From Parcubacteria bacterium C7867-001 (lineage in GTDB: Bacteria; Patescibacteriota; Minisyncoccia; Phycocordibacterales; Phycocordibacteraceae): a stretch of DNA of 64,000 nucleotides. The DNA lies in contig LFCK01000004.1 in NCBI GenBank assembly GCA_001189095.1, positions 5,674 through 69,673 on the forward strand. Direction: 5' to 3'. The notes under the pieces were generated by a model. The model was not told the origin of the DNA, ran no database searches, and was given only the letters and a program-made list of their open reading frames with translations. Each line of letters starts with the position of its first letter. Position 1 is the stretch's first letter. Below, in pieces: positions 1 through 59,835 of this stretch. A program made the translations under genes and the position numbers.

Positions 1-152
1 ATTCGCTGCACTACGCTACTTTGGCGCGTCAGTCTTCGGACTCTTCTTCGCGCTCCAGTTTTATTACGCCTGGGCAATTGCACACATTCTTCTCTCGTTT
101 GTCTCAGCAAAATGGCATTCGTAGACCTGCTACTATATACCTATCCGCAGTC

Positions 153-2264
153 ATGAAAAAAGACGAACTCCCTACGGCTGGAAAAGACTCGCTCATCACG
201 CTCGCGCTCGGGGCCGTCGCTGTCGTAACGTCACTTGCCGCAGGTTGGATAGCACTTTCGCCCACTGACCACACTCCGCGTAAGCCGTTGCCAGCTATTG
301 AGCAACAGATAGCGGCGCTCCGCGGTAAGCAAATAATAAGCTCCGAGCACTACAAAGAAGGGAATGAAACGAGAGTCCGGTATAGCTACATAGGAGAGCC
401 ACTCCCAGCAAAACTCTCTGTCGACGAAGTGGTTGGGAAGCGAACTCCAACCTCCTATACGCGCGATCTTGGAAAAGGGAACGACGGATCGCCGAAACTA
501 CAAGCGCTCGTCTATCCAAAACCCCAGTTCTTCAATAAAGAGGGTACCTGGTACTACCAAGAGTACGGTGTCGCTTCGCAAAAAGCTTTTGATACCGTAT
601 TCCCGAAAGCATTTCTTTCGTCATGGATTCCTGTCGCGTACGCAAAGACGGACTCGGCATACACCAAAGCATCAGGCGACGGGGATGTATATACGAGTGT
701 AGACACCACCGATACCGGCTATGACTGGACTACCGCACACGATTCAAGTAGCGGGTACTCATATGATACGTCTTCAACAATTTTTGGCGTCGGTATCAAT
801 CTGGTCCAGTTTCCGGGTCCGGAAGGTTGTGACGACATAAAGGTCGCTTGTCACACGTACTACACTACGCAGATATTCCGTGGATTCTTACCGTTCGATA
901 CGTCGTCCATACCGTATGGTTCGAAGATTAGCTCCTCAACGCTAATCCTCGTTGAGTCGGGTTCCCTCTCGGATTCTCACAACGATACCAAAGATTATTT
1001 TACGCTCGTGCAGACCACCCAGAATTCCGATCAAGGACTTGAAGTGGGTGATTTCGATCAGGCGGGTTCTGTTACGAGTCCAACCGAGGGAATAGATTCG
1101 GGTCAACGCAAAGATATTAGCTCTATGGTAGCGAATACGTCGTACGCAATGACACTTAATTCAACAGGTCGCAGCTGGATCAAAACGAATGGCCAGCAGA
1201 GCGTGTGTAGTGCGGCAAGCTCTGGAACTGGACAGATCTTTCTTACCTCAGGATCGAGCTGGGTCGTTCCTCCAAACTGGGGCGGCACCAATACCATTGA
1301 AACAATCGGTGGTGGAGGCGGCGGCTCAGCATTCAATTCAGGCGGTGTCGGCGAAGGCGGCGGTGGTGGTGGCGCATATTCGAAAGCAACGAATGTTAGC
1401 CTTGTGCCAGGGAGTACGGTTACCTATGCAATAGGTGCAGGCGGCGGCTTTTCAACCGCTGGCGGGGATACGTATTTCTGTAACTCAACCTCAAATTGCG
1501 CCTCTATTGCTGGTAGTGCAGTGGTGGTTGGTGCAAAAGGAGGTAGCGGCGCTTCGGTCGGAACCGGTGGTGCTGGCGGCGCGTCTGGATCTGGTATTGG
1601 GACTACAAAGGTATCTGGCGGTACAGGAGGGAGTGCTGGGTCATGGGGTGGGGGTGGGGGTGGGGGTGCCGGGGGCCCTTCTGGTGCAGGTGCTAACGGA
1701 GGCTTAAGTAGCACGGGTGGGGGTGGGGGTGGGGGTGCGAGCGGCGGCGCTGCAGGAAGTGCTGGATCTGGCAGTACTGGCGGCGCTGGCGGCAATGGTC
1801 CTCTTGGTTCTGGTGGCGGCGCGGCAAATACAGGCGGCACGAACGGAGGCGGAGGCGGAGGCGGCGATGGCACTGTTGGTGGCGGAGCGGGTGGCGATGG
1901 CACGGATTGGAATAGTACGCATGGCGCAGGCGCAGGCGGTGGCGGTTCAGGAGACAATTCGTTCGTATATGGTGCTAATGGAGGTCTCTATGGCGGCGGC
2001 GGCGGCGGCGCGCCTGATGACTCTGGTTCTGGTGGCGGCTCAGGCGCCGGCGGTATTATTGTCATGAGTGGTTCTGGTTTTGGAAGCGGTATTACCTGTC
2101 TCGGTATTCGGGAAGGACACGACACGACCAACACGAATCCGGGCACAGTCGGAGGAACCTATGCAAACCCGTACTCTTCAGAACAGACGGGGACAAGCCA
2201 AGATCCTGTTCTTGCGGTTACCTACACACCGCCGTTTGCGTTCTGGCAGTTCCAAGATTTCTAA
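153..2264 (+). CDS. Secreted/surface protein with N-terminal signal-anchor, globular domain and long Gly-rich C-terminal repeat region (GGxGGxG)
   Basis: ORF 21..2264; likely start at ATG 153 (MKKDEL...) followed by a hydrophobic helix; C-terminal ~400 aa is poly-Gly/Ala/Ser low complexity; the antisense Pro-rich ORFs are a mirror artefact. Confidence 0.55.
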   Translation: MKKDELPTAGKDSLITLALGAVAVVTSLAAGWIALSPTDHTPRKPLPAIEQQIAALRGKQIISSEHYKEGNETRVRYSYIGEPLPAKLSVDEVVGKRTPTSYTRDLGKGNDGSPKLQALVYPKPQFFNKEGTWYYQEYGVASQKAFDTVFPKAFLSSWIPVAYAKTDSAYTKASGDGDVYTSVDTTDTGYDWTTAHDSSSGYSYDTSSTIFGVGINLVQFPGPEGCDDIKVACHTYYTTQIFRGFLPFDTSSIPYGSKISSSTLILVESGSLSDSHNDTKDYFTLVQTTQNSDQGLEVGDFDQAGSVTSPTEGIDSGQRKDISSMVANTSYAMTLNSTGRSWIKTNGQQSVCSAASSGTGQIFLTSGSSWVVPPNWGGTNTIETIGGGGGGSAFNSGGVGEGGGGGGAYSKATNVSLVPGSTVTYAIGAGGGFSTAGGDTYFCNSTSNCASIAGSAVVVGAKGGSGASVGTGGAGGASGSGIGTTKVSGGTGGSAGSWGGGGGGGAGGPSGAGANGGLSSTGGGGGGGASGGAAGSAGSGSTGGAGGNGPLGSGGGAANTGGTNGGGGGGGDGTVGGGAGGDGTDWNSTHGAGAGGGGSGDNSFVYGANGGLYGGGGGGAPDDSGSGGGSGAGGIIVMSGSGFGSGITCLGIREGHDTTNTNPGTVGGTYANPYSSEQTGTSQDPVLAVTYTPPFAFWQFQDF

Positions 2265-2283: not shown

Positions 2284-3819
2284 TTACGGGATAGTGGTCG
2301 AGAGAAACGATACGGTATGACCATCGGAGCGAGTCACGACTCGTCCTGTTGGATCGATGATGAACGAAGGAGAGGCATTCGCTGATTGGAGATACCATGC
2401 ACGGTTCCGGACGGCATGCACTTTTCCTATCTGCTCCATTTTCTCTGAGAGCGTACGTGAACCGCGGAACCATGCTGGGTTGAATAGCTCAACGAGGACT
2501 GAAGCGCCTTTGTTCGCTGCAAGGTCGTGAAAGAGGTACGGCGATATGGATTCGGAGCAGAGTAACGCGCCTACTATCTTTCCGTTCCATGGCACCGCAA
2601 CTGTCTCCGAGCCGCGCACGAGCGAACGCAGACGGGTAAGATACTGATCTATTTCGGGGTCCCCGAACAGGGAAAGTACCGGTGACGTCGTGTATGGTTG
2701 GTACTCGCCGAGCGGCATCAAGAACATTTTTGCGTACGAAGCAATTTTCCCATGGACGGTGCTGTAGTAATAGAGCGTCGCATGCTCTACGGAACCGGGT
2801 TTCGTCGGCGCTATATATCGGTCATACGATGTTGTGCCTTCAGTTTCAGTCACGCTACGATACTCAGAGTTCACAATGAGAATGTCCTTTCCTTTGAAGA
2901 GGTTAAGAACGCTGTCGTGAAGTTCTATCGAAGAATATGCTTGGTCGAGACTGAATCCTTCAGGAACCACTATCATATCTGGATACGGTTCTCCCTGCGC
3001 GGCTATTTCTTCCATGAGCAGTCGAACTCGGCCGGCGTTATAAGAATCGTCGATTGGTGCTACAGGACTTGCTATCGTCACCTTAAACGGGTTGCTCGTG
3101 TTTTGAGAGGGCGCTGGCACGGTAAGGAATGCGGGAACACAAAGAAGGAGCGCCCCAGCGCACGCAACTTCCACTACATGCTTCGGAGAGTGTTTATTCC
3201 CAAGTAGGAGGGTTGCAGCACATGCGGCAAGAAATCCTACAACGAAATCGAGTACGGTGATGCCGCCGAGTCTCGAAAATTGAAGAAGGTACGGGTTCTC
3301 AGCTAGGGTGTAGCCGAGGGAGGTAACTGAAAAGTGCGGACCGAAGAGCGATTCACGGCCGAGGGTAATAAGGGCGAATCCCCACATACGTCCGTGACCC
3401 TCGAGGGTCCAAAGAAATGCTGCGCTGAGCGGACCAAAACGGCTTTTTCGTATGAGGAAAAGAAGCACTGCAGTGAGAGCGGTTGCGAGAGCCATGCTCG
3501 CCGACGCCATAAACCACATGGAGCCGACCGCGAGTCCCTCAATCCATGGGTCGCTCACATGAAGCCAATTGAGCGGAATGGTATCCCAGAACCATACGAT
3601 ACCCGCTCCTGCCGTTGCGATGCCGAAGAGGAATCCGCGCCACGCAGCACTCGTCTTGTTTTTTGCGGTATGCCAGATGTCGACGAAGAAAAGCGTTAAC
3701 CCGATTGGTGCACAAAACCAGAGAATGGAAAAAGACTCACCGAGCGCTCCTAGCGTGCTCGCAAGAAGAATGAGAAGAACCGAACTCTTTCGCACAGAGT
3801 CTACAAGGTAGTGGTACAT
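2284..3819 (-). CDS. lnt: Apolipoprotein N-acyltransferase-like protein (polytopic N-terminal domain + CN-hydrolase domain)
   Basis: About 6 N-terminal TM helices followed by a nitrilase-fold region with VVPEG (Glu) and LLCSE (Cys) motifs typical of Lnt. Confidence 0.55.
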   Translation of the reverse strand: MYHYLVDSVRKSSVLLILLASTLGALGESFSILWFCAPIGLTLFFVDIWHTAKNKTSAAWRGFLFGIATAGAGIVWFWDTIPLNWLHVSDPWIEGLAVGSMWFMASASMALATALTAVLLFLIRKSRFGPLSAAFLWTLEGHGRMWGFALITLGRESLFGPHFSVTSLGYTLAENPYLLQFSRLGGITVLDFVVGFLAACAATLLLGNKHSPKHVVEVACAGALLLCVPAFLTVPAPSQNTSNPFKVTIASPVAPIDDSYNAGRVRLLMEEIAAQGEPYPDMIVVPEGFSLDQAYSSIELHDSVLNLFKGKDILIVNSEYRSVTETEGTTSYDRYIAPTKPGSVEHATLYYYSTVHGKIASYAKMFLMPLGEYQPYTTSPVLSLFGDPEIDQYLTRLRSLVRGSETVAVPWNGKIVGALLCSESISPYLFHDLAANKGASVLVELFNPAWFRGSRTLSEKMEQIGKVHAVRNRAWYLQSANASPSFIIDPTGRVVTRSDGHTVSFLSTTIP

Positions 3820-3821: not shown

Positions 3822-5165
3822 TTATTGGCTCGGAATGAGCAGAAGTTTTACAACGAGTTCGTCTACCAGCTTTTTATCTTTTGGGGAGAGAACGGGATGC
3901 AAACCCAAATCTTGCTGCTCACTAGGATCGGTATCGATGCGGTACAGATGCACCCCGCCGTCCGGCGTTCGAAGTGCGTGCCAAGGCCACGAAACGGCCG
4001 AGGCAGTCCGTGCGAACCGTGCGCCACCCGGTATCAGTACGGACTGTACCGATGTAGCCATAGAATTCTGTAGATACACGGAGAGGAAGTGGGAGCGAGT
4101 CTCTCCGGTCTGCGCCATACTTATGCTTTGAGGAGCGGTTTCCGTACGCATGGCTTCCACAAGGGAAGCACCTTCGAACGCAGGTTCTTCAGGAAGGTTG
4201 AGAATGTCGAGCAGGGTAGCTGGAAGACTTCGCAGCTCCACATTTCCTCCAATACGCTTTGCGGTTTTTTGTGGAAGAATAATCATGAGCGGTACATGTA
4301 TGCTTTCGTTGTAGAGCGAAAATGCATGCAGGCCGACGCTGCCGTGTTCTCCGAATTCAGCTCCTGCTCCTGAGGTGATAATGACTACTGTATTTGAACG
4401 AAGTCCACTTGCGGCGAGGCGGCCGAAGAATTCTTTGAGTGCTGTGTCGACTGATCGCACGTCTTCCTTATATCCGGCGAGCGAGCGCGCAGCCTCTTCG
4501 CGTGTCGGGCCTCTGGCCTGTGAATTTATTGCTCCAATTTCTGACGACGAAACGTAGGTACCTGATTCGCGCGATCCGTAGGGAATGAAAACTTCGAGCG
4601 GATGGATGAAAAGGAAAAAAGGCGTCTGGGTATCTGTGCGCGCGCTGAGCCACGAAGTCGCCTCAGTAAATATCTTGGGTATGTCGCTTGTTCCGGCCGG
4701 AACAGGTTTGCTTACAAATTCATCGAATCCAGCTCGGACTCGGTATGCCTGACTCGGAAGCGCTGTATTAGAGAAGGCCGCCGTATCGTATCCGGAGGCG
4801 CGCAGGACTTTTGCGATTGTTAGCGTGGAGCTTGCAATAGCGTCTTTGTCCGTCCATATGCCGAGATCCCAAGGATAGCGTCCGGTAAACATCGAGACAT
4901 GGGACGCGAAATCCCAAGGAGCTTGTACGTATGCGTGATCGAATACGATACTCTGGTCGGCAAGCGAAGCAAGAAACGGTGTTGTATCAAGCGTCGGGTC
5001 AAAGAGTGATGTGTACTTCGCCCCGAGGTTTTCAATGGAAATGACAATGACGTTGCAGTTCTTACAAGAAAAGGAGTTTGAAACAGCCGCTCGGTTGAGA
5101 AGGGTAGTAAGCGCCACGCCGACGCCGACGAGAATGATGAGGATGAAAACGGCCCGCGGAATCAT
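3822..5165 (-). CDS. Membrane-anchored alkaline-phosphatase-superfamily enzyme (sulfatase / LTA-synthase-like)
   Basis: N-terminal TM, then a sulfatase-like core (…FDHAYVQAPWDFASHVSMFTGRYP…); its stop overlaps the lnt start (ATGA). Confidence 0.5.
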   Translation of the reverse strand: MIPRAVFILIILVGVGVALTTLLNRAAVSNSFSCKNCNVIVISIENLGAKYTSLFDPTLDTTPFLASLADQSIVFDHAYVQAPWDFASHVSMFTGRYPWDLGIWTDKDAIASSTLTIAKVLRASGYDTAAFSNTALPSQAYRVRAGFDEFVSKPVPAGTSDIPKIFTEATSWLSARTDTQTPFFLFIHPLEVFIPYGSRESGTYVSSSEIGAINSQARGPTREEAARSLAGYKEDVRSVDTALKEFFGRLAASGLRSNTVVIITSGAGAEFGEHGSVGLHAFSLYNESIHVPLMIILPQKTAKRIGGNVELRSLPATLLDILNLPEEPAFEGASLVEAMRTETAPQSISMAQTGETRSHFLSVYLQNSMATSVQSVLIPGGARFARTASAVSWPWHALRTPDGGVHLYRIDTDPSEQQDLGLHPVLSPKDKKLVDELVVKLLLIPSQ

Positions 5166-5248
5166 GAGTGTAATTCTATACTATGCGCTTTTGAGCGCAG
5201 CGACGTCTCAGCCACCGTGGGTGTCGTCTCGAAGTTCCTCCATTCCTG

Positions 5249-6109
5249 TTGATATACTCTAGATACATGACCGAAAGCCGCGCCCTGCAGTATCCTGTTG
5301 GTCCTCTCCGGGAGCTCCTGCTCCCCGCACTATGCGGAGTCTTCTTTTTTCTCCCTTACATATGGGCTGGGTACGCGTTCGTGGTATTCGGGTACACGCA
5401 CTTTTTCATGGCGGCACTGTATCAGTATCGGGCAGGAAAGGTGCTGACGCCGCGATATCTCCTCACCGCAGCAGTTCTCGCGGTTGGCATCGTGGTGTAT
5501 TTTCTGTTTTTTAACCACGGACCACTACCTCTTTTTATTGCAGCAAGCGTAATGTTCGCAGCGCACTTTTCATTCGACGAGTTCACTCTTCATGGTGAGC
5601 GGCTTTCGCTTGCGGGTGTCACGACTGTCATCGGCTTCACAGCACTCTATGCGCTCATCGTCTTTTCGATTCCATTCCCGCAACTTACAAACTTCGTGCC
5701 GCTCTTCGGGCTCTCGCTTCTCGTCGGTGCCGGAGTTCGCTACGTAGCGAAGTCTTCGTCCGTTACCCGCGCGGAACGCTATATATTTCTTATTGAACTT
5801 GTATCAGTCGTTGGGTTTGTCGTCTTTTCAGATCCGGTCAAAGTTGTCGTCGTTATGACGCTCTTGCATTTCGCGAACTGGGCGGTGGCGTATGGTTTCC
5901 GTTTGCGAACTGACCCGGTTCGTGCACGGAAGTATTGGACGGAAACCCTCCTTGCGACACTGTTCGTGCTGCCGTTCTTCGTATTCTATGAGCTAAATAA
6001 TCAGACTCCGTGGCTCGCGTTCTTCTTTGCGCTCTCAACCTATCAAGCTTGGACGCTGGTGCATATAACCTTGTCCTTTGTATCGACTCCATGGCGTCTT
6101 CGCTCGTAA
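5249..6109 (+). CDS. Polytopic membrane protein, paralog 1 of a tandem triplicated family (unknown function; conserved His/Glu/Asp motifs)
   Basis: 7-8 TM helices; motifs YQYRAGKV, HFSFDEFTLHGE, LLHFANW, YQAWTLVH shared with the next two genes. Confidence 0.6.
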   Translation: MIYSRYMTESRALQYPVGPLRELLLPALCGVFFFLPYIWAGYAFVVFGYTHFFMAALYQYRAGKVLTPRYLLTAAVLAVGIVVYFLFFNHGPLPLFIAASVMFAAHFSFDEFTLHGERLSLAGVTTVIGFTALYALIVFSIPFPQLTNFVPLFGLSLLVGAGVRYVAKSSSVTRAERYIFLIELVSVVGFVVFSDPVKVVVVMTLLHFANWAVAYGFRLRTDPVRARKYWTETLLATLFVLPFFVFYELNNQTPWLAFFFALSTYQAWTLVHITLSFVSTPWRLRS

Positions 6110-6144
6110 TTCGTCTCCCAGCGCTTCAGTCAAAAGAGGCCATA

Positions 6145-6951
6145 ATGCTTGCTCGCGACATCGGGCTGCCGCTCGCGCTTTTTTCTATTGCGCACGCTCT
6201 GCCGGAATCCACGGTTCTCCTAATCTATATCTGTATCGGGTGGGGCCATCTGTACATGGCGCCTTTGTATCAGTATCGTTCCGGAAAGGTGAATGCGCGT
6301 TACTTGAGTGTTGTTGCGGTACTGGTGGTGCTGACACTCGCTTATTTCGTATTATTTGACAGCAATATATCGCTCTTTGTATTGACTGTCGCGTTCTTCG
6401 GGCTCCATGGAGCAGTCGACGAGTTCTATCTGCACGGGGAGACGCTTACGTGGCGTGGTGCCATAACCGTCGCCGCCTTCGCCGCCCTGTTCGCCGTGGT
6501 CTCTCTTCTTCCGCGCTGGCCTGTCTTTGCGGTCTTCTTGCCGTATATTGCAGCAATCGTGGGCGTTGCATTCTTGCTTCGGTTACTTGTGCTCAAGGAG
6601 CTTCCTTCCCGTACTGAACTCTACTTGCTCTACATGGGTCTTCTTATAGGAGCATTTACCTACAACGCATCTCTCTATACGACTATCGCAGTGGTGAGTT
6701 TGCTGCATTACGCGAACTGGTACATTGGCTACGGTATCAAGGTTAACGATATGCCGCCGCGGCGAGTCCAGTATTGGAGGGAAGTAGCGCTATTTACTGT
6801 CGCTGGTTTCGGTTTTTATTATCTCTACATGCTTGGCGTTCCAGCACTCAAGTATTTCTTCGATCCGTACTATTACACGGCATGGACGCTCTGGCATTTC
6901 GTGCTTTCAAGCCGCTGGGTAAGCGGGCTCAAAAAACCTCTCTTTGGCTGA
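6145..6951 (+). CDS. Polytopic membrane protein, paralog 2 (alternative start 6091)
   Basis: ORF 6010..6951; the homologous region begins MLARDIGLP; motifs YQYRSGKV, DEFYLHGETL, LLHYANW, SSRWVSGLKKPLFG. Confidence 0.6.
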   Translation: MLARDIGLPLALFSIAHALPESTVLLIYICIGWGHLYMAPLYQYRSGKVNARYLSVVAVLVVLTLAYFVLFDSNISLFVLTVAFFGLHGAVDEFYLHGETLTWRGAITVAAFAALFAVVSLLPRWPVFAVFLPYIAAIVGVAFLLRLLVLKELPSRTELYLLYMGLLIGAFTYNASLYTTIAVVSLLHYANWYIGYGIKVNDMPPRRVQYWREVALFTVAGFGFYYLYMLGVPALKYFFDPYYYTAWTLWHFVLSSRWVSGLKKPLFG

Positions 6952-6952
6952 T

Positions 6953-7804
6953 ATGACCAGTCTTTCCATTTCAATCATTCGTTCTCAGGGCTTTCTGATG
7001 CTTCTTCGCGATATCGGGCTGCCATTCGCGCTCTTCGCGCTCTTCGCGCTCCTCCCGAATGACTGGATACTCATGACCTTCGTTATTGTTGCGTGGGGTC
7101 ATATCAATCTCGCGATGCTGTATCAATATCGAGCAGGGAAGATTACCTCCCGGTATGCACTGGTCGCCGCGGCATCTATCGCCCTTGGCGTTGGGTATTT
7201 TCTCTGGGTCGGTTACGAATTCCCGATCTATGTGCTTGGTATTGCGGCGTTCGCACTCCATTTCAGCGTAGATGAATTCTATTTGCACGGAGAGACGCTT
7301 ACGTGGAAGAACGGGATCATTGCAGGCATCGTTACGGCCCTCTTTACCTCAATATCGCTCCTTCCCTCATCTCCCGTATATCAAACGGTCATCATGCTTC
7401 TTGTTGGTTTCGGTCTCGCCGTTCTGGCTCTGCGTTCGGTGGTAGCCCGAATACCGCCCTCACGCACCGAGGTGTATCTTTGCTATGTGGGAGCCCTTCT
7501 CATGGTATTTAAGTTCGGTACGCATTTCTATACAGCGTTCGGTGTCTTAAGCCTCCTGCATTTCGTAAATTGGTACATCGCGTACGGGATGAAGGTATCA
7601 GGTACTGCGCGTGCACTTCGTTACTGGAGCGAGGTCGCGCTCTGTACGGTGATGGGGGCAACACTATTCTTTCTCTACTTCATCGATGCCATATCCTTCC
7701 TTAAATATTTGTTCGGTCCGCTCTACTACACCGCTTGGTCCATATTGCACTTCATTCTTTCGAGTCGGTGGGTGAGTGGGCTGAAGAGGCCGCTGTTCGG
7801 ATAG
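6953..7804 (+). CDS. Polytopic membrane protein, paralog 3
   Basis: ATG 2 nt after the paralog 2 stop (the ORF track used TTG at 6944); motifs YQYRAGKI, DEFYLHGETL, LLHFVNW, SSRWVSGLKRPLFG. Confidence 0.6.
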   Translation: MTSLSISIIRSQGFLMLLRDIGLPFALFALFALLPNDWILMTFVIVAWGHINLAMLYQYRAGKITSRYALVAAASIALGVGYFLWVGYEFPIYVLGIAAFALHFSVDEFYLHGETLTWKNGIIAGIVTALFTSISLLPSSPVYQTVIMLLVGFGLAVLALRSVVARIPPSRTEVYLCYVGALLMVFKFGTHFYTAFGVLSLLHFVNWYIAYGMKVSGTARALRYWSEVALCTVMGATLFFLYFIDAISFLKYLFGPLYYTAWSILHFILSSRWVSGLKRPLFG

Positions 7805-7945
7805 GTTTTAGAAAATGGCTTATATAAAGGCTATTCAGTCGGTAAGGCTATCCACAAGGAACTCGTTTACCCAGTCGGCCCTACATAAAGCGGCTATACT
7901 TATAGGGGTAAGGCCGCTACGGCCTCTTATAAACTAAAGAATCAT

Positions 7946-8362
7946 ATGGCTAAGAAGCTTGCTCTCGTGCTCGGTGTGGTGTTTGTTCTCGTGGGTCTTC
8001 TCGGTATGTTCGTCCCGAATCCGCTCGTCGGTGCAGGTGCGATTTTCGATACCAACACGCTCCACGACATCGTGCATCTCGTGTTCGGCATTATCCTTAT
8101 TGTCGTTGCGCTCAAGGCGCCGATGAAGTCAGGCCTCTGGCTCAAGATCCTCGGCGTCGTGTACCTCCTCATCGCGGTACTCGGCTTCGTGCTTATCCCG
8201 ACCGGTGGAATGCTCCTCGGTCTTGTTGAGGCAAACGATGCGGACCACTGGCTCCATGTCGTGCTCGGCGTCGTGCTTCTTGCTGCAGGTTTCCTCGGCG
8301 GCAAGGGCAAGGCACCGGCTGCTCCTGCAGCTCCCGCTGCTCCGGCAGGTCCGTCGATGTAG
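7946..8362 (+). CDS. Small membrane protein (DUF4383-like), C-terminal PAAPAAPAAP tail
   Basis: 138 aa with 4 hydrophobic helices; followed by an intrinsic terminator. Confidence 0.5.
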   Translation: MAKKLALVLGVVFVLVGLLGMFVPNPLVGAGAIFDTNTLHDIVHLVFGIILIVVALKAPMKSGLWLKILGVVYLLIAVLGFVLIPTGGMLLGLVEANDADHWLHVVLGVVLLAAGFLGGKGKAPAAPAAPAAPAGPSM

Positions 8363-8427
8363 TCGATGTGCCTTTAGAAAACGCGTCTCGTCGGTTCACC
8401 GGCGGGACGTGTTTTCGTATTGCCAAA

Positions 8428-8456
8428 CAAAAACCGGACGCGAAGCGTCCGGTTTT
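8428..8456. terminator. Intrinsic terminator hairpin (ccggacgc-gaa-gcgtccgg + T-run)
   Basis: Perfect 8-bp stem flanked by an A-run upstream and a T-run downstream. Confidence 0.6.
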
Positions 8457-8881
8457 GGTTAGTCGAACTTACGGCTGAGGCAGATGAAAAGCGTGAGCAT
8501 TCGCAATGAGCGCAGATGCGGCCATGGCGGATGATTCAGCGCCGTTCAAGAATGCGACAGCGGTGTGTTCGATGTGCGAGAAGACCTCGGGGACCGATGC
8601 TTTGAGAACAAGAATCGTGAGTCCGAGACCGAGTGCCTGAAGTATACCCATAGGATAATCTGGTAATCGGATAAATCGTGAGCGAATGCGCACGATAAGA
8701 CTGCAGTAACGCGGTCTCGATGGTTCTTATTCTCAATGTCCGGTCCCTCTAGTCTCTAGAACCCTTAGTATAGAAATAAGGTTGCTCTCCAGCTCTCTAC
8801 GAAAACGAGAAGGCCCACCGAGGCGAACCTTTCGCCTGGGTGGGCCCAGAGTTCAGGAGCTAGTCGGCCTGAACGTTGTAT

Positions 8882-9673: not shown

Positions 9674-10231
9674 TTATGTATGCTTCGAGGCGTCGTTAAG
9701 AAGATCGGCAAACTGCTTCTGCACCTTCTGGAGTTTCGGCGCGATGATCACTTGGCAGTATCCCTGATTCGCGTTGTTTGCGAAGTAGTCCTTATGGTAG
9801 TCCTCTGCGGTGTAGTAGTTGGTGAGCGGTTCGACAGTGGTTACGATAGGGTCGCCGCCTGCTGCTGAAACTTGGAGCTCGGCGATGAATTCGTCGGCGT
9901 CGTGTTTCTGCTCATCGGTCGTATAGAAAATTACCGAGCGATATTGAGTCCCGACGTCATTGCCTTGTTGATTGAGTTGCGTCGCGTCATGGCTCCCAAA
10001 GAAAACGGTCATAAGATCGCGGAAACGGATCTGAGAAGGATCGTATTCAACACGTGCGACTTCGACGTAGTCCGTGTTTCCATTCGCGACCTCAAGATAG
10101 GTCGGGTTCGGCTTTTCTCCACCCGCATAGCCCGGCTCAACCGCCCTCACGCCGCGCAGCATCTTGAACACTGCTTCCGTGCACCAGAAGCAACCCCCGC
10201 CAAATACTGCGATCTCAGTCTTATTTTCCAT
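9674..10231 (-). CDS. msrA: Peptide methionine sulfoxide reductase A
   Basis: GGGCFWCTE active-site motif near the N-terminus. Confidence 0.9.
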   Translation of the reverse strand: MENKTEIAVFGGGCFWCTEAVFKMLRGVRAVEPGYAGGEKPNPTYLEVANGNTDYVEVARVEYDPSQIRFRDLMTVFFGSHDATQLNQQGNDVGTQYRSVIFYTTDEQKHDADEFIAELQVSAAGGDPIVTTVEPLTNYYTAEDYHKDYFANNANQGYCQVIIAPKLQKVQKQFADLLNDASKHT

Positions 10232-10640
10232 CCTCTTCAAATCCTAAGCATACGGAATTGATGCAGTAATGCTTCTGGTCCTTTCCTTCTATGTGTTCGT
10301 CAAAGACGTGGCCTAAGTGGCTGCCGCAGTGCTTACAGTAGACTTCCGTGCGGTGCATGCCGAGTGAATCGTCGGGGCGCAAGCCAATGTTTTCAGCGAC
10401 CGCTGGGTCGGAGAAGGAGGGCCAACCCCGCAACCCCGCACCGCTTTTTTCGGAGTCGAGTTTATCCTTCGAGTTGAAAAGGGGATTGCCACATACTTTG
10501 CAGGTATACATGCCGGAAGCGGTGTGGTTGAGGAATTCACCGGAATATGGTGCTTCTGTCCCGCCCTCCCGTAGGACTTTATACTCCTCAGGAGTCAACT
10601 CCTGTTTGAGTTGCTCATCGCTTTTTTTCATCGGTTCCAT
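10221..10640 (-). CDS. msrB: Peptide methionine sulfoxide reductase B
   Basis: SelR fold: two CxxC zinc pairs, HLGHVF and RYCINS catalytic Cys; overlaps the msrA start by 11 nt. Confidence 0.85.
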   Translation of the reverse strand: MEPMKKSDEQLKQELTPEEYKVLREGGTEAPYSGEFLNHTASGMYTCKVCGNPLFNSKDKLDSEKSGAGLRGWPSFSDPAVAENIGLRPDDSLGMHRTEVYCKHCGSHLGHVFDEHIEGKDQKHYCINSVCLGFEEDGK

Positions 10641-10699
10641 ATAGAGGAAGTATACCCCGTCGTTGATTTCATTGGTTGGGAAGGGTAGTATGGGTTTCC

Positions 10700-11149
10700 A
10701 TGAAGAAAGGGGTTCTCATTGGGCTTTTCATTTTCCTTTGTTTGTTCGGGGTTGCCGACTCGTGGTACATCTACGCAAACGAAGAGAACCAGACCGCGCT
10801 CACCTGCGATATTACGGGGCTTGATGGCTGCAATGCTGTTGCACAGAGTCAGTATTCGCAGGTCTTGGGTATCCCACTCGCACTCTACGGTGTTCTATTC
10901 TATGGCCTCCTCTTTACGCTGGTCGCTTCTACCGCGTTTACGCACAAGCGCCTCGCGTATCGTTCGCTCTACTGGCTTACCGCGGGCGGGGCCGTAGCGT
11001 CCTTCGTGTTCATTCTCATACAGCTGCTCATCATCAAAGCCATCTGCATTTACTGCTTTGCCTCGGCGGGGGCCTCCTTCCTCCTTCTCGGCATCGCGTT
11101 TGTTCTCTATCGCCGGTACGCTCCTCCACCGCTTGCTGTGGTAGGATAG
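10700..11149 (+). CDS. Vitamin K epoxide reductase (VKOR)-family thiol oxidoreductase
   Basis: 4 TM helices, a loop Cys pair (CDITGLDGC) and a CIYC active-site motif in the last helix. Confidence 0.65.
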   Translation: MKKGVLIGLFIFLCLFGVADSWYIYANEENQTALTCDITGLDGCNAVAQSQYSQVLGIPLALYGVLFYGLLFTLVASTAFTHKRLAYRSLYWLTAGGAVASFVFILIQLLIIKAICIYCFASAGASFLLLGIAFVLYRRYAPPPLAVVG

Positions 11150-45377: not shown

Positions 45378-45546
45378 GGAGAGGTGGCTATGAATATAGT
45401 GGGATTATATTCATCCGCGTAGACGGGAGTGTCCGAGGAGGACACGAAGTCACCGAACCGATGAAATACGGAGAGGTGGCTACGAACATGATGGGATCGT
45501 GTTCGTCCCCGAAGAGGGGAGTGTCCGAGGAGGACACGAAGTCACC
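45378..45546 (+). repeat. Two tandem ~77-nt cloverleaf-like repeats (R1 45378-45454, R2 45470-45546), each starting with the first 12 nt of tRNA-Ser (GGAGAGGTGGCT)
   Basis: Closing stem ggtggc/gtcacc plus three hairpins; R1 versus R2 differences are compensatory within the stems. Confidence 0.6.
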
Positions 45547-47214
45547 TCGATTGAGTGAAGCGAAGGAGAGGTGGCTGAGTGGTCGAAGGCACCACACTCG
45601 AAATGTGGCGTACGGGAAACTGTACCGAGAGTTCGAATCTCTCCCTCTCCGCAATACTGGTGAAGAGGTGGCGAAAGCTACCTCTTTTCCTTTATCTACT
45701 TGGGTTTTTAGCAGTTCGTAATCTTTATTCAGCTTCGGTACCCACTCAACCAATAATTGAGCCGCATCTGTGTAGAATCTCCTTATTTCAAGCCTGTTTT
45801 GCTGTAAGTTCGTAAAGATTTGTGAAAAGAGTAATCGCTTCTCATCATTGTTGGCTTTCTCATAGATTTCCCGTGCCTTGTACGCGAGTTCGTGCACAGC
45901 AACTCCTAACTGTAGGTATTCATCGTTCTTATCACCACAACGAACCAGGGCGCTTTCAAGAGCCTCTTCCTCGGTTATCAAATCTCCAATCTTTCTCTCG
46001 AAAAATTCTGCTGGAGCCTCACGATTTATCTTTGCTTCATAGAGCTTATCCTTTTGGGCGCGAACACCTTGCAGCAATCCGTTGAGACGCTTCACATCAC
46101 TTTCGCGTTCAGTAATCTGCTCACTGTGTTGGCTTCTTAAAATATCTTCAATAGCCGAAAGCACACGCTCATCTTTTGGAGCGATGCTATCAAAAATATC
46201 AATAAGCTGTAATTCAACTCTATCCTCTCGAATGCCTGTCTTTTGAGGACAGTTCTTAAAGGCGGTACTGTTATTACAATGCCCGTACCAATTACCTTTC
46301 TTTTGATACCACGTAACCATCCCACCGCATCCCTCACAGAAAATCTTGCTCTTAAATAAAGCGTTGTGCTTTTGATACTTTGGATTCTTCATCTGTCGTC
46401 TCAAGACAAGCTGCACTTTCTCAAAAACATCCCTAGCGACAAGCGGCTCGTGAGTTCCAGGGTACACTTCTCCTAGCCATCGTATTTTGCCGATATAGAA
46501 AGGGTCTTGCAGTAAGTTATAGATTCGGGATTTCAATAGCATCTTGCCGCTCGTATTGCGCAATCCAGCATCGTAAAACTCTTTTTCCAGTCGCTTGAGT
46601 GAATAATCTCCCGTTGCGTACAACTCAAACATTTTCTTTATATGAAAAGCAACAGCCTCATTAGGCGCGTGGATTTTATGTCCTTTTTCTCCCACACACT
46701 TGTAGCCAATAAGAGGCTTGGCAGGTAGTCCGCCTTGTGCGATTTTTTCCTTTTGCCCCTTCTTCACTTCTTCTGAAAGATTTGTAACGTACTTTTTCGC
46801 AAGCACAATTTCAATATCCCACCTAAACTTCTCATCAGATTTAGCATTTTTGTGAATGACAAGATTTTGTTTTACGAAATGGATTTGTCTTTCTTCGTTA
46901 GCCTCAAGCCAGTCATTGATAGCTAGAGCATCTTTAAGGTTTCTGGTAAGTCGGTCAACTTTTTCGCAGAGGATATTAGTGACTCTATTTTTCTCTGTGA
47001 ATTTAATCATCTCATCGAATACCTTGCGTTGCTTGGCTCCGCTTGCTGATTCTGCCATCGAAAATATCTTTACGACGGTCAACTTTCTTTTATCAGCATG
47101 TTCTTTAAGTAATTTTTCCTGTGAATCGAGGGAATATCCAGTTTCTTCCTGTTCTCTTGAGGAGACTCGACAGTAGAGTACAGCTTTTGGTTTTAATTCT
47201 TTGTTAGTAGTCAT
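45388..47214 (-). CDS. Large serine recombinase (resolvase domain + recombinase domain + zinc ribbon + coiled coil); the last ~90 codons run antisense through tRNA-Ser and the repeats
   Basis: N-terminal AVLYCRVSSREQ (catalytic Ser), a CEGCGG...HCNN zinc ribbon and a long coiled coil. Confidence 0.8.
   Translation of the reverse strand: MTTNKELKPKAVLYCRVSSREQEETGYSLDSQEKLLKEHADKRKLTVVKIFSMAESASGAKQRKVFDEMIKFTEKNRVTNILCEKVDRLTRNLKDALAINDWLEANEERQIHFVKQNLVIHKNAKSDEKFRWDIEIVLAKKYVTNLSEEVKKGQKEKIAQGGLPAKPLIGYKCVGEKGHKIHAPNEAVAFHIKKMFELYATGDYSLKRLEKEFYDAGLRNTSGKMLLKSRIYNLLQDPFYIGKIRWLGEVYPGTHEPLVARDVFEKVQLVLRRQMKNPKYQKHNALFKSKIFCEGCGGMVTWYQKKGNWYGHCNNSTAFKNCPQKTGIREDRVELQLIDIFDSIAPKDERVLSAIEDILRSQHSEQITERESDVKRLNGLLQGVRAQKDKLYEAKINREAPAEFFERKIGDLITEEEALESALVRCGDKNDEYLQLGVAVHELAYKAREIYEKANNDEKRLLFSQIFTNLQQNRLEIRRFYTDAAQLLVEWVPKLNKDYELLKTQVDKGKEVAFATSSPVLRRGRDSNSRYSFPYATFRVWCLRPLSHLSFASLNRGDFVSSSDTPLFGDEHDPIMFVATSPYFIGSVTSCPPRTLPSTRMNIIPLYS
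45565..45651 (+). tRNA. tRNA-Ser (anticodon CGA)
   Basis: Long variable arm; anticodon loop ctCGAaa; followed by the hairpin at 45671-45695. Confidence 0.8.
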
Positions 47215-47230
47215 AAATTTATTTGGAATG

Positions 47231-47575
47231 TTATTTCTTGGAGAAGTGTTTTGTGAGAATCACTGTCACAAGAATCGTTATTATTAAAATAAGCGCAAAC
47301 ACGATTACATTTCCATATTCATTTATGCCTGCTTGCGAAGGCGCGTTCTCTGCGGTAGTTGTCGGTTGAATTTTCAAGGCATCAAGCTCACTTCGGATTT
47401 CTTGGACTTGCGTTTTCAGTTCAGTATTTTCTTGCTGGAGATTTGAGCTTGGTTGCTGATTCTGCTGTCTTTGATAGTAAGTCTGTATACACGTTTGAAG
47501 CGCAGCCTCATCAGTGGTCTTACAACCTGTTGCAGTATCTTGATATTGTTTTTGAAACTGTAGAATTTTTGCCAT
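47231..47575 (-). CDS. Tail-anchored coiled-coil membrane protein, element-encoded (ORF extends to 47731)
   Basis: Gln-rich coiled coil and a C-terminal TM (VIVFALILIITILVTVILT). Confidence 0.4.
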   Translation of the reverse strand: MAKILQFQKQYQDTATGCKTTDEAALQTCIQTYYQRQQNQQPSSNLQQENTELKTQVQEIRSELDALKIQPTTTAENAPSQAGINEYGNVIVFALILIITILVTVILTKHFSKK

Positions 47576-47772
47576 AGGTGCTAGCACCTGTAGCAGTCCG
47601 TTACGCAAAAAGGGACAGCCCAGGAGCCTGCTACCCACAAGATTGAATTGCACGAGGCAACCAATTGCGGAGGTCTGGACTGCCCCTTTTCGCCCACAAT
47701 TGGGGCTTAAAAAAGCAGAGACCTCGTGCACTATTCAAAACTTATGGGTAGCATAGTAAGTATAGCAAGATG

Positions 47773-47988
47773 TCAGCTTTTGGCAAGTTCAATATCACTA
47801 CTTTTTATTGCCATTTTTATTGCGCTTGCTAATAGCTGAGTTCTTGACCAGCAAACATCCTCGTCGAGGTACCAAGACATCTTAATTTCATCCAACTCTA
47901 CCTTTGTGAGTTCTCGTCCAAAATTTGCTTCAGCAAAACTTTGGATTTCATCCGTATCAAACTCAACTGTAAGTAATATTTCTTCCAT
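47773..47988 (-). CDS. Small acidic hypothetical protein, element-encoded
   Basis: 71-aa ORF, pI acidic by eye. Confidence 0.4.
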   Translation of the reverse strand: MEEILLTVEFDTDEIQSFAEANFGRELTKVELDEIKMSWYLDEDVCWSRTQLLASAIKMAIKSSDIELAKS

Positions 47989-48031
47989 TTTTTTGGTTAG
48001 TTAAATTTATAAATCTCTATATGATGAAATT

Positions 48032-49768
48032 TTACCCATCATCAGCACTAAAGGGTACGAGGGAGCAGAAGACGCTGTTTTTACCACCCTTCTTTGTGAA
48101 AAGTTGTGAATCTTTAATCATCTCTTCTATGGCTGTCTTGAATGTTGAGTGACCTGTTTTAATCCCAGTCTTTTCGACCAACTTCCATATCTCACTTTTG
48201 ATTAAGGGGGTGCCAGTGTCCTCTAATGCTAGTTGGATAGAGGTTTTCAATTCCTCCTTTTTATTTGTTCTACCTTTGCTCTGTCCTCCATATTTGAAGT
48301 AACCTTTTTCACCGTCACTGTGCAAGCGAACTACAAAAGGTTCCATTTCTTGCCCCTCTCGTAATTTGTTTTGCTGGATGGTTACACTAGCGTCATTGCC
48401 ACGTCTATCAACGGCGAGGTGACAATCCACTTGGGCAAGAATATCTGATGAGCCGCGCATATCCTGTGACGCGTTACTCCTGTCAGCTCCTTTCTTGCGA
48501 TGATGATGGATAACAATGACCGCAATGCCATGATTGGTAACTTCCTTAAAGTGCTTCATTACTTCTCTCATTTCGCTTGCTACATTTTCATCTGAATCGT
48601 GGATACAGATGAGGGAGTCGAAAATCACAAGCTCGATATTTTTGCTTTTCGCAAATTCAATAACTTTTCCTACACTCTCCTTAGTGAGCAAAAAGTCTTT
48701 TTTGGAAGCAATGAAAATAGGCAGCTCGTTATTCTGCAAAAGCAGCTTCGCTCTATCTTTCAGAATCCGTGGATGATTCTCTTCGTCAATAATCAGCACA
48801 GGGCTTTGCCTGGTCTGAAATTCGTCAAATAGCTTCTCACCGCCAGCTATCTTTAGTGCAATATCTAGAGTAATAAAAGTTTTATAAGACCTGGGTGCTC
48901 CAGAAATGATAGTGACAGCTTCGTGTGGAATCAGTCTCTCAACAAGCCATTTAGTATTTTTGTATTCAGTTACAAGTAGTTGTGAAAGCGGTACCGCATC
49001 TATGCCACGGCTAGTTTTAGGTTCGCTTTTTTCTGCTCTCTGTTTCAGCTCTCGATTGGCAATACTGTTGAAGACATTTTTTAATTCTGCATCTGGAAGA
49101 GGTGGTTTGTTGTTTTGATTCCAGCGTTGCATACCAAGCCATACCAGCTCCCAGGTATCCTCTGGAAGATAACCCAGCATTTTTCCTGCCATCTGCGCCG
49201 ATACCTCATTTCTACTTCCTTCCATTACTGGTTTTGCAATGGTTGCTTTCCAGTCAGCATCTTTTTCTTCCTCTCCGAAAGCCCAGTGCGGTAGTTCTGC
49301 AAGTTCCATTTCGCCTGGAGGGATGTTCCAAACGTATTGATTGCCAGATGAAAGTAAAGAGGGTGGCACTACCACGTATCCACCATCAGCTCTAATATCA
49401 ACATTGGGTACAATGCGCACTCGATTCTTCACTTCTCGACCAGGGTGTTTGCAAAATATGTGCCGTCCGCCGCTTGCAGTTTGAGATGCAACAGTAAGAG
49501 GCAGTGGGTAGTCAATTTTTTCTGGAGTATCTATATCAATGACAACAATTCCAGAGATAGCGCCTGTAACGATTCCCACATTCGCATCTGGGTATCTTGT
49601 GAACCACGCCTCAATCTCTTTTTTCGTGGCTCTGGTACGTTGGTAGACTTCCCACTTAATGAGAGCTTTCTTATCTTTGCCGATTGGTATAACAGACCAG
49701 CCTAAATCAGCATATTGAAGCGCGGCTATGAGGTTTTGATTTTCATTTTTCATAAAATTATTTGGCAT
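48032..49768 (-). CDS. Bifunctional PrimPol-domain primase + AAA_25/RecA-like ATPase (replicative primase-helicase of a mobile element)
   Basis: PrimPol motifs GIVVIDIDTP, GGRHIF, DIRADGGYVVVPPS; Walker A GAPRSYKT; Walker B ELVIFDS. Confidence 0.75.
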   Translation of the reverse strand: MPNNFMKNENQNLIAALQYADLGWSVIPIGKDKKALIKWEVYQRTRATKKEIEAWFTRYPDANVGIVTGAISGIVVIDIDTPEKIDYPLPLTVASQTASGGRHIFCKHPGREVKNRVRIVPNVDIRADGGYVVVPPSLLSSGNQYVWNIPPGEMELAELPHWAFGEEEKDADWKATIAKPVMEGSRNEVSAQMAGKMLGYLPEDTWELVWLGMQRWNQNNKPPLPDAELKNVFNSIANRELKQRAEKSEPKTSRGIDAVPLSQLLVTEYKNTKWLVERLIPHEAVTIISGAPRSYKTFITLDIALKIAGGEKLFDEFQTRQSPVLIIDEENHPRILKDRAKLLLQNNELPIFIASKKDFLLTKESVGKVIEFAKSKNIELVIFDSLICIHDSDENVASEMREVMKHFKEVTNHGIAVIVIHHHRKKGADRSNASQDMRGSSDILAQVDCHLAVDRRGNDASVTIQQNKLREGQEMEPFVVRLHSDGEKGYFKYGGQSKGRTNKKEELKTSIQLALEDTGTPLIKSEIWKLVEKTGIKTGHSTFKTAIEEMIKDSQLFTKKGGKNSVFCSLVPFSADDG

Positions 49769-49940
49769 TGTCTTTGCTTGCTTCTTGATGGAGACGCAAA
49801 TTGATTTTGGCGAGCGTAACGTAAAAAGTAGCGAAGTCTTTTAGAAGTTTCTGTATCTCGCTTTCAGAACGTCCTTCAAAAACACCTGTCTCTTCAATAG
49901 GGATTCGCAGCTTCGCAAGTTGTTGCGGTGTGAACTCCAT
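49758..49940 (-). CDS. Small hypothetical protein (60 aa), element-encoded
   Basis: Internal ATG of ORF 49758..50021; abuts the stop of the 49942..50181 ORF. Confidence 0.25.
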   Translation of the reverse strand: MEFTPQQLAKLRIPIEETGVFEGRSESEIQKLLKDFATFYVTLAKINLRLHQEASKDNAK

Positions 49941-49941
49941 A

Positions 49942-51268: not shown

Positions 51269-51280
51269 GTGTCTGATTTT

Positions 51281-59828: not shown

Positions 59829-59835
59829 TGAGCCT

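What the first reader, a model, noticed from the sequence alone, without database searches (positions are those of the whole stretch)
5249..7804. Three tandem paralogous polytopic membrane proteins with conserved His/Glu/Asp motifs: an uncharacterised putative membrane-enzyme family
Three consecutive ~270-285-aa genes, with stops and starts 2-40 nt apart, share an 8-TM layout and strictly conserved motifs. These are W.GH, YQYR(A/S)GK, H(F/G).(F/V)DEF.LHGE(T/R)L, SLLH(F/Y)(A/V)NW..YG, and a C-terminal YY.AW(T/S).(L/W)HF.LSSRWVSGLK.PLFG (the last part only in paralogs 2 and 3). The conserved His, Glu and Asp on TM helices suggest a metal-dependent membrane enzyme. Retaining three diverged copies suggests different substrate specificities. 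They lie next to Lnt and a sulfatase/LTA-synthase-like gene, so they may act in envelope lipid or glycan modification.
Basis: seen in the sequence. Interest (0 to 1): 0.65.

Follow-up and report, generated by a model that had tools for sequence, protein, structure and literature searches.

The report
Blh-like four-histidine membrane enzyme paralogs
Three neighbouring genes in a Parcubacteria genome encode an unannotated ten-helix membrane protein family that appears to be a distant cousin of the retinal-making carotene-cleaving enzyme Blh, and that is genomically tied to lipid-transferring envelope enzymes rather than to rhodopsins.

Summary
The three tandem paralogs are real: 5249/5267-6109, 6091/6145-6951 and 6953/6998-7804, + strand, 33-48% identical. 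The window is from Parcubacteria bacterium C7867-001. No Pfam, NCBIfam or PDB sequence match exists. An exhaustive HMM search finds a small family: 333 cluster representatives, all about 270-300 aa, from Paceibacterota, Saccharibacteria, a Myxococcales MAG and unnamed metagenome contigs.

The models show ten helices, not eight. Four His are invariant in 137 members, on helices 2, 4, 8 and 10. These His, the Asp-Glu pair after His2, a Gly before His1 and a Tyr and a Phe further on fall in the same columns as the invariant residues of the Brp/Blh beta-carotene 15,15'-dioxygenases. The literature takes the four Blh His as non-heme iron ligands. Protein length, helix order and hydropathy profile also coincide. 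Profile-profile statistics are weak (P 0.002-0.014), and curated Blh models do not match.

Across 31 loci no rhodopsin gene was detected. A Lnt-like gene lies nearby in 12 loci and a UbiA-type prenyltransferase is adjacent in 8, often with 4-nt overlaps.

Best reading: a new sister family of Brp/Blh, probably a four-His metal enzyme acting on a membrane lipid. The substrate is unknown.

The parts
5267..6109 (+). Paralog 1 (280 aa from ATG 5267; the ORF opens at TTG 5249). It belongs to the main Paceibacterota clade of the family and lacks the C-terminal SSRWVSGLKxPLFG tail.
   Evidence: P0006 is identical; family HMM E 1.6e-66; tree
6091..6951 (+). Paralog 2 (286 aa as called by NCBI, ABA06_04165). 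An alternative start at ATG 6145 is preceded by AAGAGG. It is the sister of paralog 3.
   Evidence: (P0002 is identical)
6998..7804 (+). Paralog 3 (268 aa from ATG 6998; alternative start ATG 6953). This is the sequence modelled with AlphaFold2: ten helices, pLDDT 82.6.
   Evidence: (P0001 is identical)
7100..7750 (+). Span in paralog 3 holding the family's invariant residues. His35 is at 7100-7102 (helix 2), His88 at 7259-7261 (helix 4), Asp92-Glu93 at 7271-7276, His188 at 7559-7561 (helix 8), Tyr209 at 7622-7624 (helix 9) and His251 at 7748-7750 (helix 10). This is the proposed metal site.
   Evidence: invariance in 137 sequences; helices; same columns as Blh G40, H43, H92, F93, E96, D97, H193, Y213, F247, H257
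3822..5165 (-). Single-TM sulfatase / alkaline-phosphatase-superfamily protein, transcribed divergently from paralog 1. The block of Lnt-like and sulfatase-like genes on one strand with the family gene on the other is conserved in L008, L010 and L016, and partly in L015. By eye, DFASH replaces the CxPxR formylglycine motif.
   Evidence: the motif was read from the translation
2284..3819 (-). Lnt-like apolipoprotein N-acyltransferase (LNT_N plus CN_hydrolase; TIGR00546 118.5 bits, below the 132.9 cut-off). By eye the Glu/Lys/Cys triad motifs VPEG, AKM and LCSE are present. It is the most frequently conserved neighbour of the family.
   Evidence: the triad was read from the translation

Best explanation
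The three genes encode members of an unannotated family of ten-helix integral membrane proteins. The family is most likely a remote sister of the Brp/Blh beta-carotene 15,15'-dioxygenases.

By analogy with Blh, four invariant His, one each on helices 2, 4, 8 and 10, would bind one non-heme metal ion. All four helices run from outside to inside, and the His sit in the cytoplasmic half of the membrane. Fe(II) is expected. An Asp-Glu pair one helical turn after His2 lies at the cytoplasmic membrane boundary.

The enzyme would act on a hydrophobic substrate dissolved in the bilayer, most plausibly by O2-dependent cleavage or oxygenation of an isoprenoid or unsaturated lipid chain. It works together with a membrane lipid transferase: a Lnt-like N-acyltransferase here and in many Paceibacterota, and a UbiA-type prenyltransferase or an AT3 acyltransferase in other lineages. 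It is not a retinal-supplying Blh in the usual sense, because no rhodopsin gene was detected in any locus.

Shown: the family, its invariant residues, its collinearity with Blh and its gene neighbourhoods. Inferred: homology rather than convergence, metal binding, oxygenase chemistry and a lipid substrate. The three copies are one member of the main clade (paralog 1) plus a lineage-specific duplicated pair from a second clade (paralogs 2 and 3).
For: Family and invariant residues:
- The exhaustive profile search finds 333 representatives with E<=1e-3, and the 150 listed are mostly 260-300 aa.
- Four His are invariant, and G32, D92, E93, Y209 and others nearly invariant, in 137 sequences.

Collinearity with real Blh proteins (fetched):
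- Invariant His fall at match columns 42, 91, 192 and 256 of 280. The family has them at 39, 92, 196 and 261 of 278.
- hhalign gives one collinear 213-column alignment that pairs all four His. Score is 24.2 and P is 0.014.
- The subgroup closest to the window gives P 0.0024, through the His3-His4 half. Another subgroup aligns through the His1-His2 half, also in register.
- None of 100 block shuffles reach the score of the real comparison.
- Four MAFFT modes, unsupervised, put all four His of both families in the same columns. A reversed-Blh control puts none there.
- The same alignment also pairs G32/G40, F89/F93, D92/E96, E93/D97, Y209/Y213 and F239/F247.
- Hydropathy profiles correlate at r 0.57-0.59, with the optimum at shift -1 to 0 out of +/-60.
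- AlphaFold2 models of both proteins have the same helix order, with His on helices 2, 4, 8 and 10.
- Blh is described as having helical topology and four His for non-heme iron coordination (bioRxiv 10.1101/367102).

Topology: K+R counts put the even-numbered loops inside.

Gene context:
- A Lnt-like gene is nearby in 12 of 31 loci.
- A UbiA-family gene is directly adjacent in 8 of 31, with 4-nt overlaps in L006, L019, L023 and L046.
- An AT3 gene overlaps the family gene by 4 nt in a Myxococcales MAG.
Against: - Statistical support for homology is weak. HH-suite probability is only 3-12%.
- Profile-to-sequence searches in both directions are not significant.
- PF15461 and TIGR03753 each hit only 1 of 137 members, at E about 0.05. 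The Pfam hit was traced to P0074. A Blh profile built here aligns that protein out of register, with the family's His1 helix on the Blh His2 helix.
- The Blh alignment used is not diverse: mostly Pantoea and Sphingomonas, plus one Polymorphobacter sequence.
- The model coordinates could not be inspected, so convergence of the four His on one site is not verified.
- No rhodopsin gene was detected near any member.
- These CPR bacteria are generally fermentative, which sits uneasily with an O2-dependent enzyme.
- Nothing identifies the substrate.
Confidence: 0.55

Rival explanations
1. A membrane-embedded metal-dependent hydrolase or transferase that uses no O2. It might use Zn, with His plus Asp/Glu. 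It would serve the adjacent Lnt-like, UbiA-like or AT3 lipid transferase, for example by handling lysolipid, prenyl-phosphate or acyl intermediates. The Blh-like scaffold would be reused for different chemistry.
For: - There is tight, often translationally coupled, linkage to three different kinds of lipid transferase.
- An invariant His set plus an Asp-Glu pair lies at the cytoplasmic boundary.
- The hosts are mostly CPR bacteria with a presumed fermentative lifestyle (own knowledge).
- There are precedents for polytopic His/Glu proteins assisting lipoprotein N-acylation, such as LnsB (own knowledge, not tested here).
Against: - No similarity was found to any known membrane hydrolase or transferase family in Pfam or NCBIfam.
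- The only family with matching architecture and matching invariant residues is an iron dioxygenase.
Confidence: 0.2
2. A genuine but highly divergent beta-carotene (or other carotenoid) cleaving dioxygenase. It would let CPR cells make retinal or apocarotenoids from host-derived carotenoids.
For: - The four-His architecture is the same as in Blh.
- The family occurs in Saccharibacteria (L009).
- Rhodopsin-bearing Saccharibacteria are reported to lack any detectable blh when searched with thresholded HMMs (bioRxiv 10.1101/2022.02.13.480300). Such searches would miss this family.
Against: - tblastn found no rhodopsin and no canonical blh in the 64-kb window or in loci L001-L035 (E<=1). Pfam annotation of L044-L047 lists none either.
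- Canonical blh genes sit directly next to rhodopsin genes (L036, L037). This family sits next to Lnt-like or UbiA genes instead.
- Three paralogs in one genome are not expected for a single retinal-forming step.
Confidence: 0.08
3. A haem-binding membrane protein. It could be a di-haem b electron carrier, or a CtaA-like haem-modifying enzyme with two bis-His sites (His35/His88 and His188/His251).
For: - Four invariant His sit on four separate TM helices.
- The His spacing of 53/100/63 resembles what I recall for Bacillus CtaA (own knowledge, not tested).
- A UbiA-family gene is adjacent in 8 loci, as ctaB is to ctaA.
- VKOR, MsrA and MsrB lie nearby in the window.
Against: - No significant internal duplication was found between the N and C halves. 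The hit has probability 2%, and the alignment it gives pairs the His2 region with the His3 region rather than His1 with His3.
- No COX15/CtaA hit appears in the listed Pfam results for 137 members.
- No CtaA chain appears among the 50 listed Foldseek matches to the PDB.
- The adjacent UbiA proteins are closest to archaeal-type prenyltransferases, and no protohaem farnesyltransferase model matched them at E<=0.001.
- All four His lie at a similar depth on parallel helices. That fits one site better than two haems at opposite faces.
- CPR bacteria generally lack haem synthesis (own knowledge).
Confidence: 0.07
4. A transporter or structural membrane protein whose conserved His line a channel, with no catalytic role.
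For: - It is a ten-helix polytopic protein.
- The weak Foldseek hits are to nucleotide-sugar transporters (E 0.13, TM 0.2).
Against: - Those hits are not significant.
- Absolute invariance of four His plus an acidic pair across sequences that are only 15-25% identical is typical of a catalytic or metal site.
- No inverted or direct repeat typical of transporters was detected.
Confidence: 0.05

Closest known systems
Brp/Blh family beta-carotene 15,15'-dioxygenase (Pfam PF15461 BCD; NCBIfam TIGR03753)
   Same: - Length is about 270-330 aa, and the fold is polytopic and all-helical.
- AlphaFold2 helix order is the same, with His on helices 2, 4, 8 and 10.
- The four invariant His sit at near-identical positions: columns 39/92/196/261 against 42/91/192/256.
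- Local motifs agree: G-x-A-H at His1, H-F-x-x-acid-acid at His2, a hydrophobic run before His3, a Tyr on helix 9, and a Phe before His4.
- Neither family has a solved relative in the PDB.
   Different: - The family scores below every curated threshold.
- It carries its own signature motifs that Blh lacks, namely YLYQYRxGK, NWY after His3 and W before His4.
- It lacks the fifth conserved His of the Blh set used here (H121).
- No rhodopsin gene was detected near any member. It sits next to Lnt-like, UbiA-like or AT3 genes instead.
- It occurs largely in CPR bacteria.
- The substrate is unknown.
Haem A synthase CtaA/COX15
   Same: Four conserved His lie on separate TM helices with broadly similar spacing, and a UbiA-family partner gene is adjacent (own knowledge).
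   Different: - This family has ten helices, where CtaA has eight (own knowledge).
- No internal duplication was detected.
- There is no listed Pfam or Foldseek match.
- The partner UbiA proteins did not match any haem O synthase model at E<=0.001.
Membrane di-iron desaturase/hydroxylase superfamily (FA_desaturase, FA_hydroxylase)
   Same: These are membrane-embedded, His-ligated iron oxygenases acting on lipid chains.
   Different: Those enzymes use eight or nine His in HxxxH / HxxHH boxes on cytoplasmic loops. Here there are four single His, one per helix, with no His boxes and no listed Pfam match.

Membership tests
[quoted passage not shown] | Scores above the curated cut-off of the family models | tested here: not met
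   None of the three paralogs hits either model at E<=1. Each model hits 1 of 137 family members, at E about 0.05. The Pfam hit was traced to P0074, and a Blh profile built here aligns that protein out of register. True Blh proteins score 69-127 bits.
[quoted passage not shown] | Four conserved His in transmembrane helices, the proposed non-heme iron ligands | tested here: met
   Four His are invariant in 137 members. They co-align with the four invariant Blh His in hhalign and in four MAFFT modes, with a negative reversed control. Column positions are 39/92/196/261 against 42/91/192/256. The ligand role is taken from bioRxiv 10.1101/367102.
[quoted passage not shown] | Same polytopic helical architecture | tested here: met
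   AlphaFold2 models of paralog 3 (pLDDT 82.6) and of a Pantoea-type Blh (pLDDT 89.3) have matching helix order, with His on helices 2, 4, 8 and 10. Hydropathy correlation is r 0.57-0.59 and is best at zero shift. No 3D superposition was possible.
[quoted passage not shown] | Statistically significant sequence or profile similarity | tested here: inconclusive
   hhalign gives P 0.014 (all members) and 0.0024 (closest subgroup), with probability only 3-12%. None of 100 block shuffles reach the real score. HMM-to-sequence searches are not significant.
[quoted passage not shown] | Genomic association with rhodopsin or carotenoid biosynthesis genes | tested here: not met
   tblastn found no rhodopsin or canonical blh in the window or in L001-L035, and Pfam annotation of L044-L047 lists none. 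The conserved neighbours are Lnt-like, sulfatase-like, UbiA and AT3 genes. Canonical blh genes in L036 and L037 abut rhodopsin genes.
[quoted passage not shown] | Fe(II)- and O2-dependent cleavage of beta-carotene to retinal | not testable with these tools
   This needs biochemistry or expression in a carotenoid-producing host.
Haem A synthase CtaA/COX15 | Tandem internal duplication of a four-helix, bis-His haem-binding unit, and a match to the COX15-CtaA model | tested here: not met
   The N-half against C-half hhalign gives probability 2% and pairs the wrong His. No COX15-CtaA hit appears in the listed Pfam results for 137 members. No CtaA chain appears among the 50 listed Foldseek PDB matches.
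Haem A synthase CtaA/COX15 | Partner UbiA-family gene is a protohaem IX farnesyltransferase (CtaB/CyoE) | tested here: not met
   The adjacent UbiA proteins are closest to generic or archaeal-type prenyltransferase models, far below their cut-offs. No haem O synthase model matched at E<=0.001.
Membrane di-iron desaturase/hydroxylase | Three His boxes (HxxxH, HxxHH) | tested here: not met
   No His boxes occur in the alignments, and there is no listed Pfam hit.

The most novel reading that the evidence does not exclude
The family is a previously unrecognised class of membrane-embedded four-His iron oxygenases. It would cleave or oxygenate a prenyl or unsaturated acyl chain as one step of a lipid-anchoring pathway built around Lnt-like, UbiA-like or AT3 transferases. 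That would be a new envelope lipid or lipoprotein modification route in CPR bacteria, which cannot make their own lipids. A sub-variant of this reading: some members are the 'missing' retinal-forming enzyme of rhodopsin-bearing lineages that lack a canonical blh.
Probability: 0.25. Interest if true: 0.75.

Novelty: new variant of a known kind. Interest (0 to 1): 0.55.

Why it matters
Brp/Blh has been treated as a narrow family that makes retinal for rhodopsins. A distant sister family would show that the four-His membrane scaffold has a wider role in lipid chemistry, because this family is found largely in CPR bacteria and is coupled to a Lnt-like N-acyltransferase or a UbiA-type prenyltransferase rather than to rhodopsins.

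CPR bacteria depend on host lipids, and their envelope biochemistry is largely unknown. A conserved enzyme wired to Lnt gives a concrete handle on that biochemistry.

The result also matters for surveys that conclude 'no blh' from thresholded HMM searches. Such searches are blind to this family.

Tried and rejected
- Pfam and NCBIfam scans of the three paralogs and of 137 family members gave only chance-level hits.
- The one weak BCD (Brp/Blh) hit first looked like support. The Pfam hit was traced to P0074, and a local Blh profile aligns that protein out of register, so it was discarded as evidence.
- PDB sequence searches with family and Blh profiles found nothing.
- Foldseek of both AlphaFold2 models against the PDB, and of the family model against BFVD, found nothing significant.
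- No significant internal repeat was found by hhalign of the N half against the C half.
- The word-indexed protein search is nearly blind to this family, returning 5-6 hits.
- The genome-contig scan returned only 2 loci. Alignments A3 and A4 were too diverse for pattern scans.
- Looking for more diverse Blh proteins next to plasmid-borne rhodopsins gave only two usable sequences.
- The promoter and terminator scan of 5000-8600 was at background level.
- The CtaA-like, di-haem, desaturase and transporter readings were considered and judged less likely (see rivals).
Full report
OBSERVATION

The window carries three consecutive + strand ORFs at 5249-6109, 6010-6951 and 6944-7804. Public gene calls use ATG 5267 (P0006, 280 aa), ATG 6091 (P0002, 286 aa, 'hypothetical protein ABA06_04165 [Parcubacteria bacterium C7867-001]') and ATG 6998 (P0001, 268 aa). 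These calls also identify the source genome.

Identity is 33-35% between paralog 1 and the other two, and 48% between paralogs 2 and 3. Three corrections apply. W.GH and SLLH are not shared by paralog 1 (it has YTH and TLLH). The AlphaFold2 model has ten helices, not eight. K+R counts per loop across the family put the N terminus, the even-numbered loops and the C terminus inside.

The neighbours are a Lnt-like N-acyltransferase (2284-3819, -) and a single-TM sulfatase-family protein (3822-5165, -), transcribed divergently.

THE FAMILY

Neither Pfam nor NCBIfam recognises any paralog. PDB sequence searches find nothing. The word-indexed search finds only five relatives.

The exhaustive profile search of 1.84 billion representatives finds 333 proteins at E<=1e-3, of which 273 are below 1e-10. 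The 150 listed are mostly 260-300 aa and single-domain. Named members are all 'hypothetical protein'. They come from Paceibacterota, Saccharibacteria, a Myxococcales MAG and a MAG labelled Bacillota.

In an alignment of 137 members whose identity falls to 15-25%, four His are invariant. In the numbering of paralog 3 from 6998 these are H35, H88, H188 and H251. G32, F36, Y42, F85, D92, E93, W192, Y209 and W247 are at least 90% conserved. The four His lie on helices 2, 4, 8 and 10. All four helices run from outside to inside, and the His sit in the cytoplasmic half. No significant internal repeat is detectable.

A distance tree puts paralogs 2 and 3 as sisters, a lineage-specific duplication. 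Paralog 1 falls in a different clade, the main Paceibacterota one.

WHAT IT RESEMBLES

One member in 137 gave a chance-level hit to the Brp/Blh models. I treated this as a lead only. The Pfam hit was later traced to P0074. A Blh profile built here aligns P0074 out of register, so the hit is not evidence.

To test the lead properly I fetched annotated Brp/Blh genes that lie next to rhodopsin genes on plasmids: Pantoea soli, L037:5594-6409, and Polymorphobacter, L036:4518-5507. I then built a Blh alignment from them. The comparison gave these results:

- Both families have about 280 match columns. The invariant His fall at columns 39/92/196/261 in this family and 42/91/192/256 in Blh.
- hhalign returns a single collinear 213-column alignment that pairs all four His, with score 24.2 and P 0.014.
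- The subgroup closest to the window gives P 0.0024 through the C-terminal half. Another subgroup aligns through the N-terminal half. Both are in register.
- None of 100 block-shuffled Blh profiles reach the real score. The null has mean 15.5, sd 3.1 and maximum 20.5.
- Four MAFFT modes, run unsupervised on a mixture of both families, place all four His of both families in the same columns. A reversed-Blh control shares none.
- That alignment also pairs G32/G40, F89/F93, D92/E96, E93/D97, Y209/Y213 and F239/F247. The motifs G-x-A-H and H-F-x-x-acid-acid are therefore common to both.
- Smoothed hydropathy profiles correlate at r 0.57-0.59, with the optimum at a shift of -1 to 0 out of +/-60.
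- An AlphaFold2 model of Blh (pLDDT 89.3) has the same order of helices, with its His on helices 2, 4, 8 and 10.

GENOMIC CONTEXT

I collected 31 non-redundant loci. I labelled their neighbours by clustering and by Pfam and NCBIfam.

- A Lnt-like gene lies within about 8 kb in 12 loci. The block of Lnt-like and sulfatase-like genes on one strand with the family gene on the other, as in the window, recurs in L008, L010 and L016, and partly in L015. In L018, L020, L029, L030 and L045 the Lnt-like gene directly follows the family gene on the same strand, with 4-nt overlaps in L029 and L045. In a Saccharibacteria contig (L009) two family genes flank a Lnt-like gene.
- A UbiA-family prenyltransferase is directly adjacent in 8 loci (L006, L019, L022, L023, L034, L035, L046, L047), with 4-nt overlaps in L006, L019, L023 and L046. 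These proteins are closest to generic or archaeal-type prenyltransferases, and no haem O synthase model matched them at E<=0.001.
- In the Myxococcales MAG, an AT3 acyltransferase overlaps the family gene by 4 nt.
- tblastn found no rhodopsin and no canonical blh in the whole window or in L001-L035. Pfam annotation of L044-L047 lists none either.

MECHANISM

Shown: a ten-helix membrane protein with four invariant His and an acidic pair, collinear with Blh, and recurrently coupled to membrane lipid transferases.

Inferred: the four His bind one Fe(II) in the cytoplasmic leaflet half of the bilayer. The enzyme oxygenates or cleaves a hydrophobic, probably isoprenoid or unsaturated, lipid. It cooperates with whichever lipid transferase is encoded next to it. 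I hold this at about 0.55.

The main rival keeps the scaffold but proposes chemistry without O2, as a hydrolase or transferase accessory to Lnt-like or UbiA-like enzymes (0.2). A cryptic retinal-forming Blh (0.08), a haem protein or CtaA-like enzyme (0.07) and a transporter (0.05) are less likely, for the reasons listed under rivals.

NOVELTY AND VERDICT

The family is unannotated, and it fails the membership test for PF15461/TIGR03753 on score and on genomic context. It meets the test on architecture and on the defining four-His set. I therefore class it as a new variant of a known kind, that is, a sister family of Brp/Blh with a different biological setting.

Interest is moderate at 0.55. 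The relation to a carotenoid dioxygenase and the tight coupling to Lnt-like or UbiA genes in lipid-auxotrophic CPR bacteria are unexpected and testable. The substrate is unknown, and the homology still needs a structural comparison.

Noticed in passing
window 45388-54358: This looks like an integrated mobile element. It holds a large serine recombinase (45388-47214, -; Resolvase + Recombinase + Zn_ribbon_recom), a Prim-Pol/PriCT_1/AAA_25 primase-helicase (48032-49768, -) and a 1029-aa AAA_21/SMC_N ATPase (51269-54358, +).
   Followed up: partly
window 9674-11149: A cluster of envelope and redox repair genes: MsrA-like (9674-10240, -) and MsrB-like (10221-10640, -), both read from their translations only, next to a VKOR-family protein (10676-11149, +; Pfam). 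A VKOR implies a quinone-like cofactor in an organism not expected to make quinones.
   Followed up: partly
window 21-2264; L008 2603-3823; L010 964-3231: A 747-aa protein with long Gly-rich GGxGG runs and no Pfam domain lies beyond the Lnt-like gene. Homologues occupy a nearby position relative to the Lnt-like gene in two other Paceibacterota loci.
   Followed up: partly
window 7946-8362: A DUF4383 small membrane protein (138 aa) lies 142 nt after paralog 3 on the same strand. Whether it belongs to the same unit is unknown. It was not among the recurrent neighbours.
   Followed up: partly
L006 8847-9821 (-): A very divergent second family member (324 aa, family HMM E 2e-14) converges on the UbiA-coupled family gene. 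By eye it keeps all four His and has HALENE at His2.
   Followed up: partly
window 3822-5165: By eye, the sulfatase-family neighbour has DFASH where sulfatases carry the CxPxR formylglycine motif. It is therefore probably not a true sulfatase (read from the translation; family hits).
   Followed up: no
window 59340-61065: A bacterial SET-domain protein (59340-59828, +) overlaps the start of a GH18 glycosyl hydrolase (59803-61065, +).
   Followed up: no
L001 5275-5781, L007 1705-2229, L017 8850-9431: A roughly 170-190-aa secreted or anchored protein with no Pfam match recurs within about 2.2 kb of the family gene in three loci. It lies directly next to the gene in L007 and L017. In L007 it follows a weak cupredoxin-like gene.
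   Followed up: no
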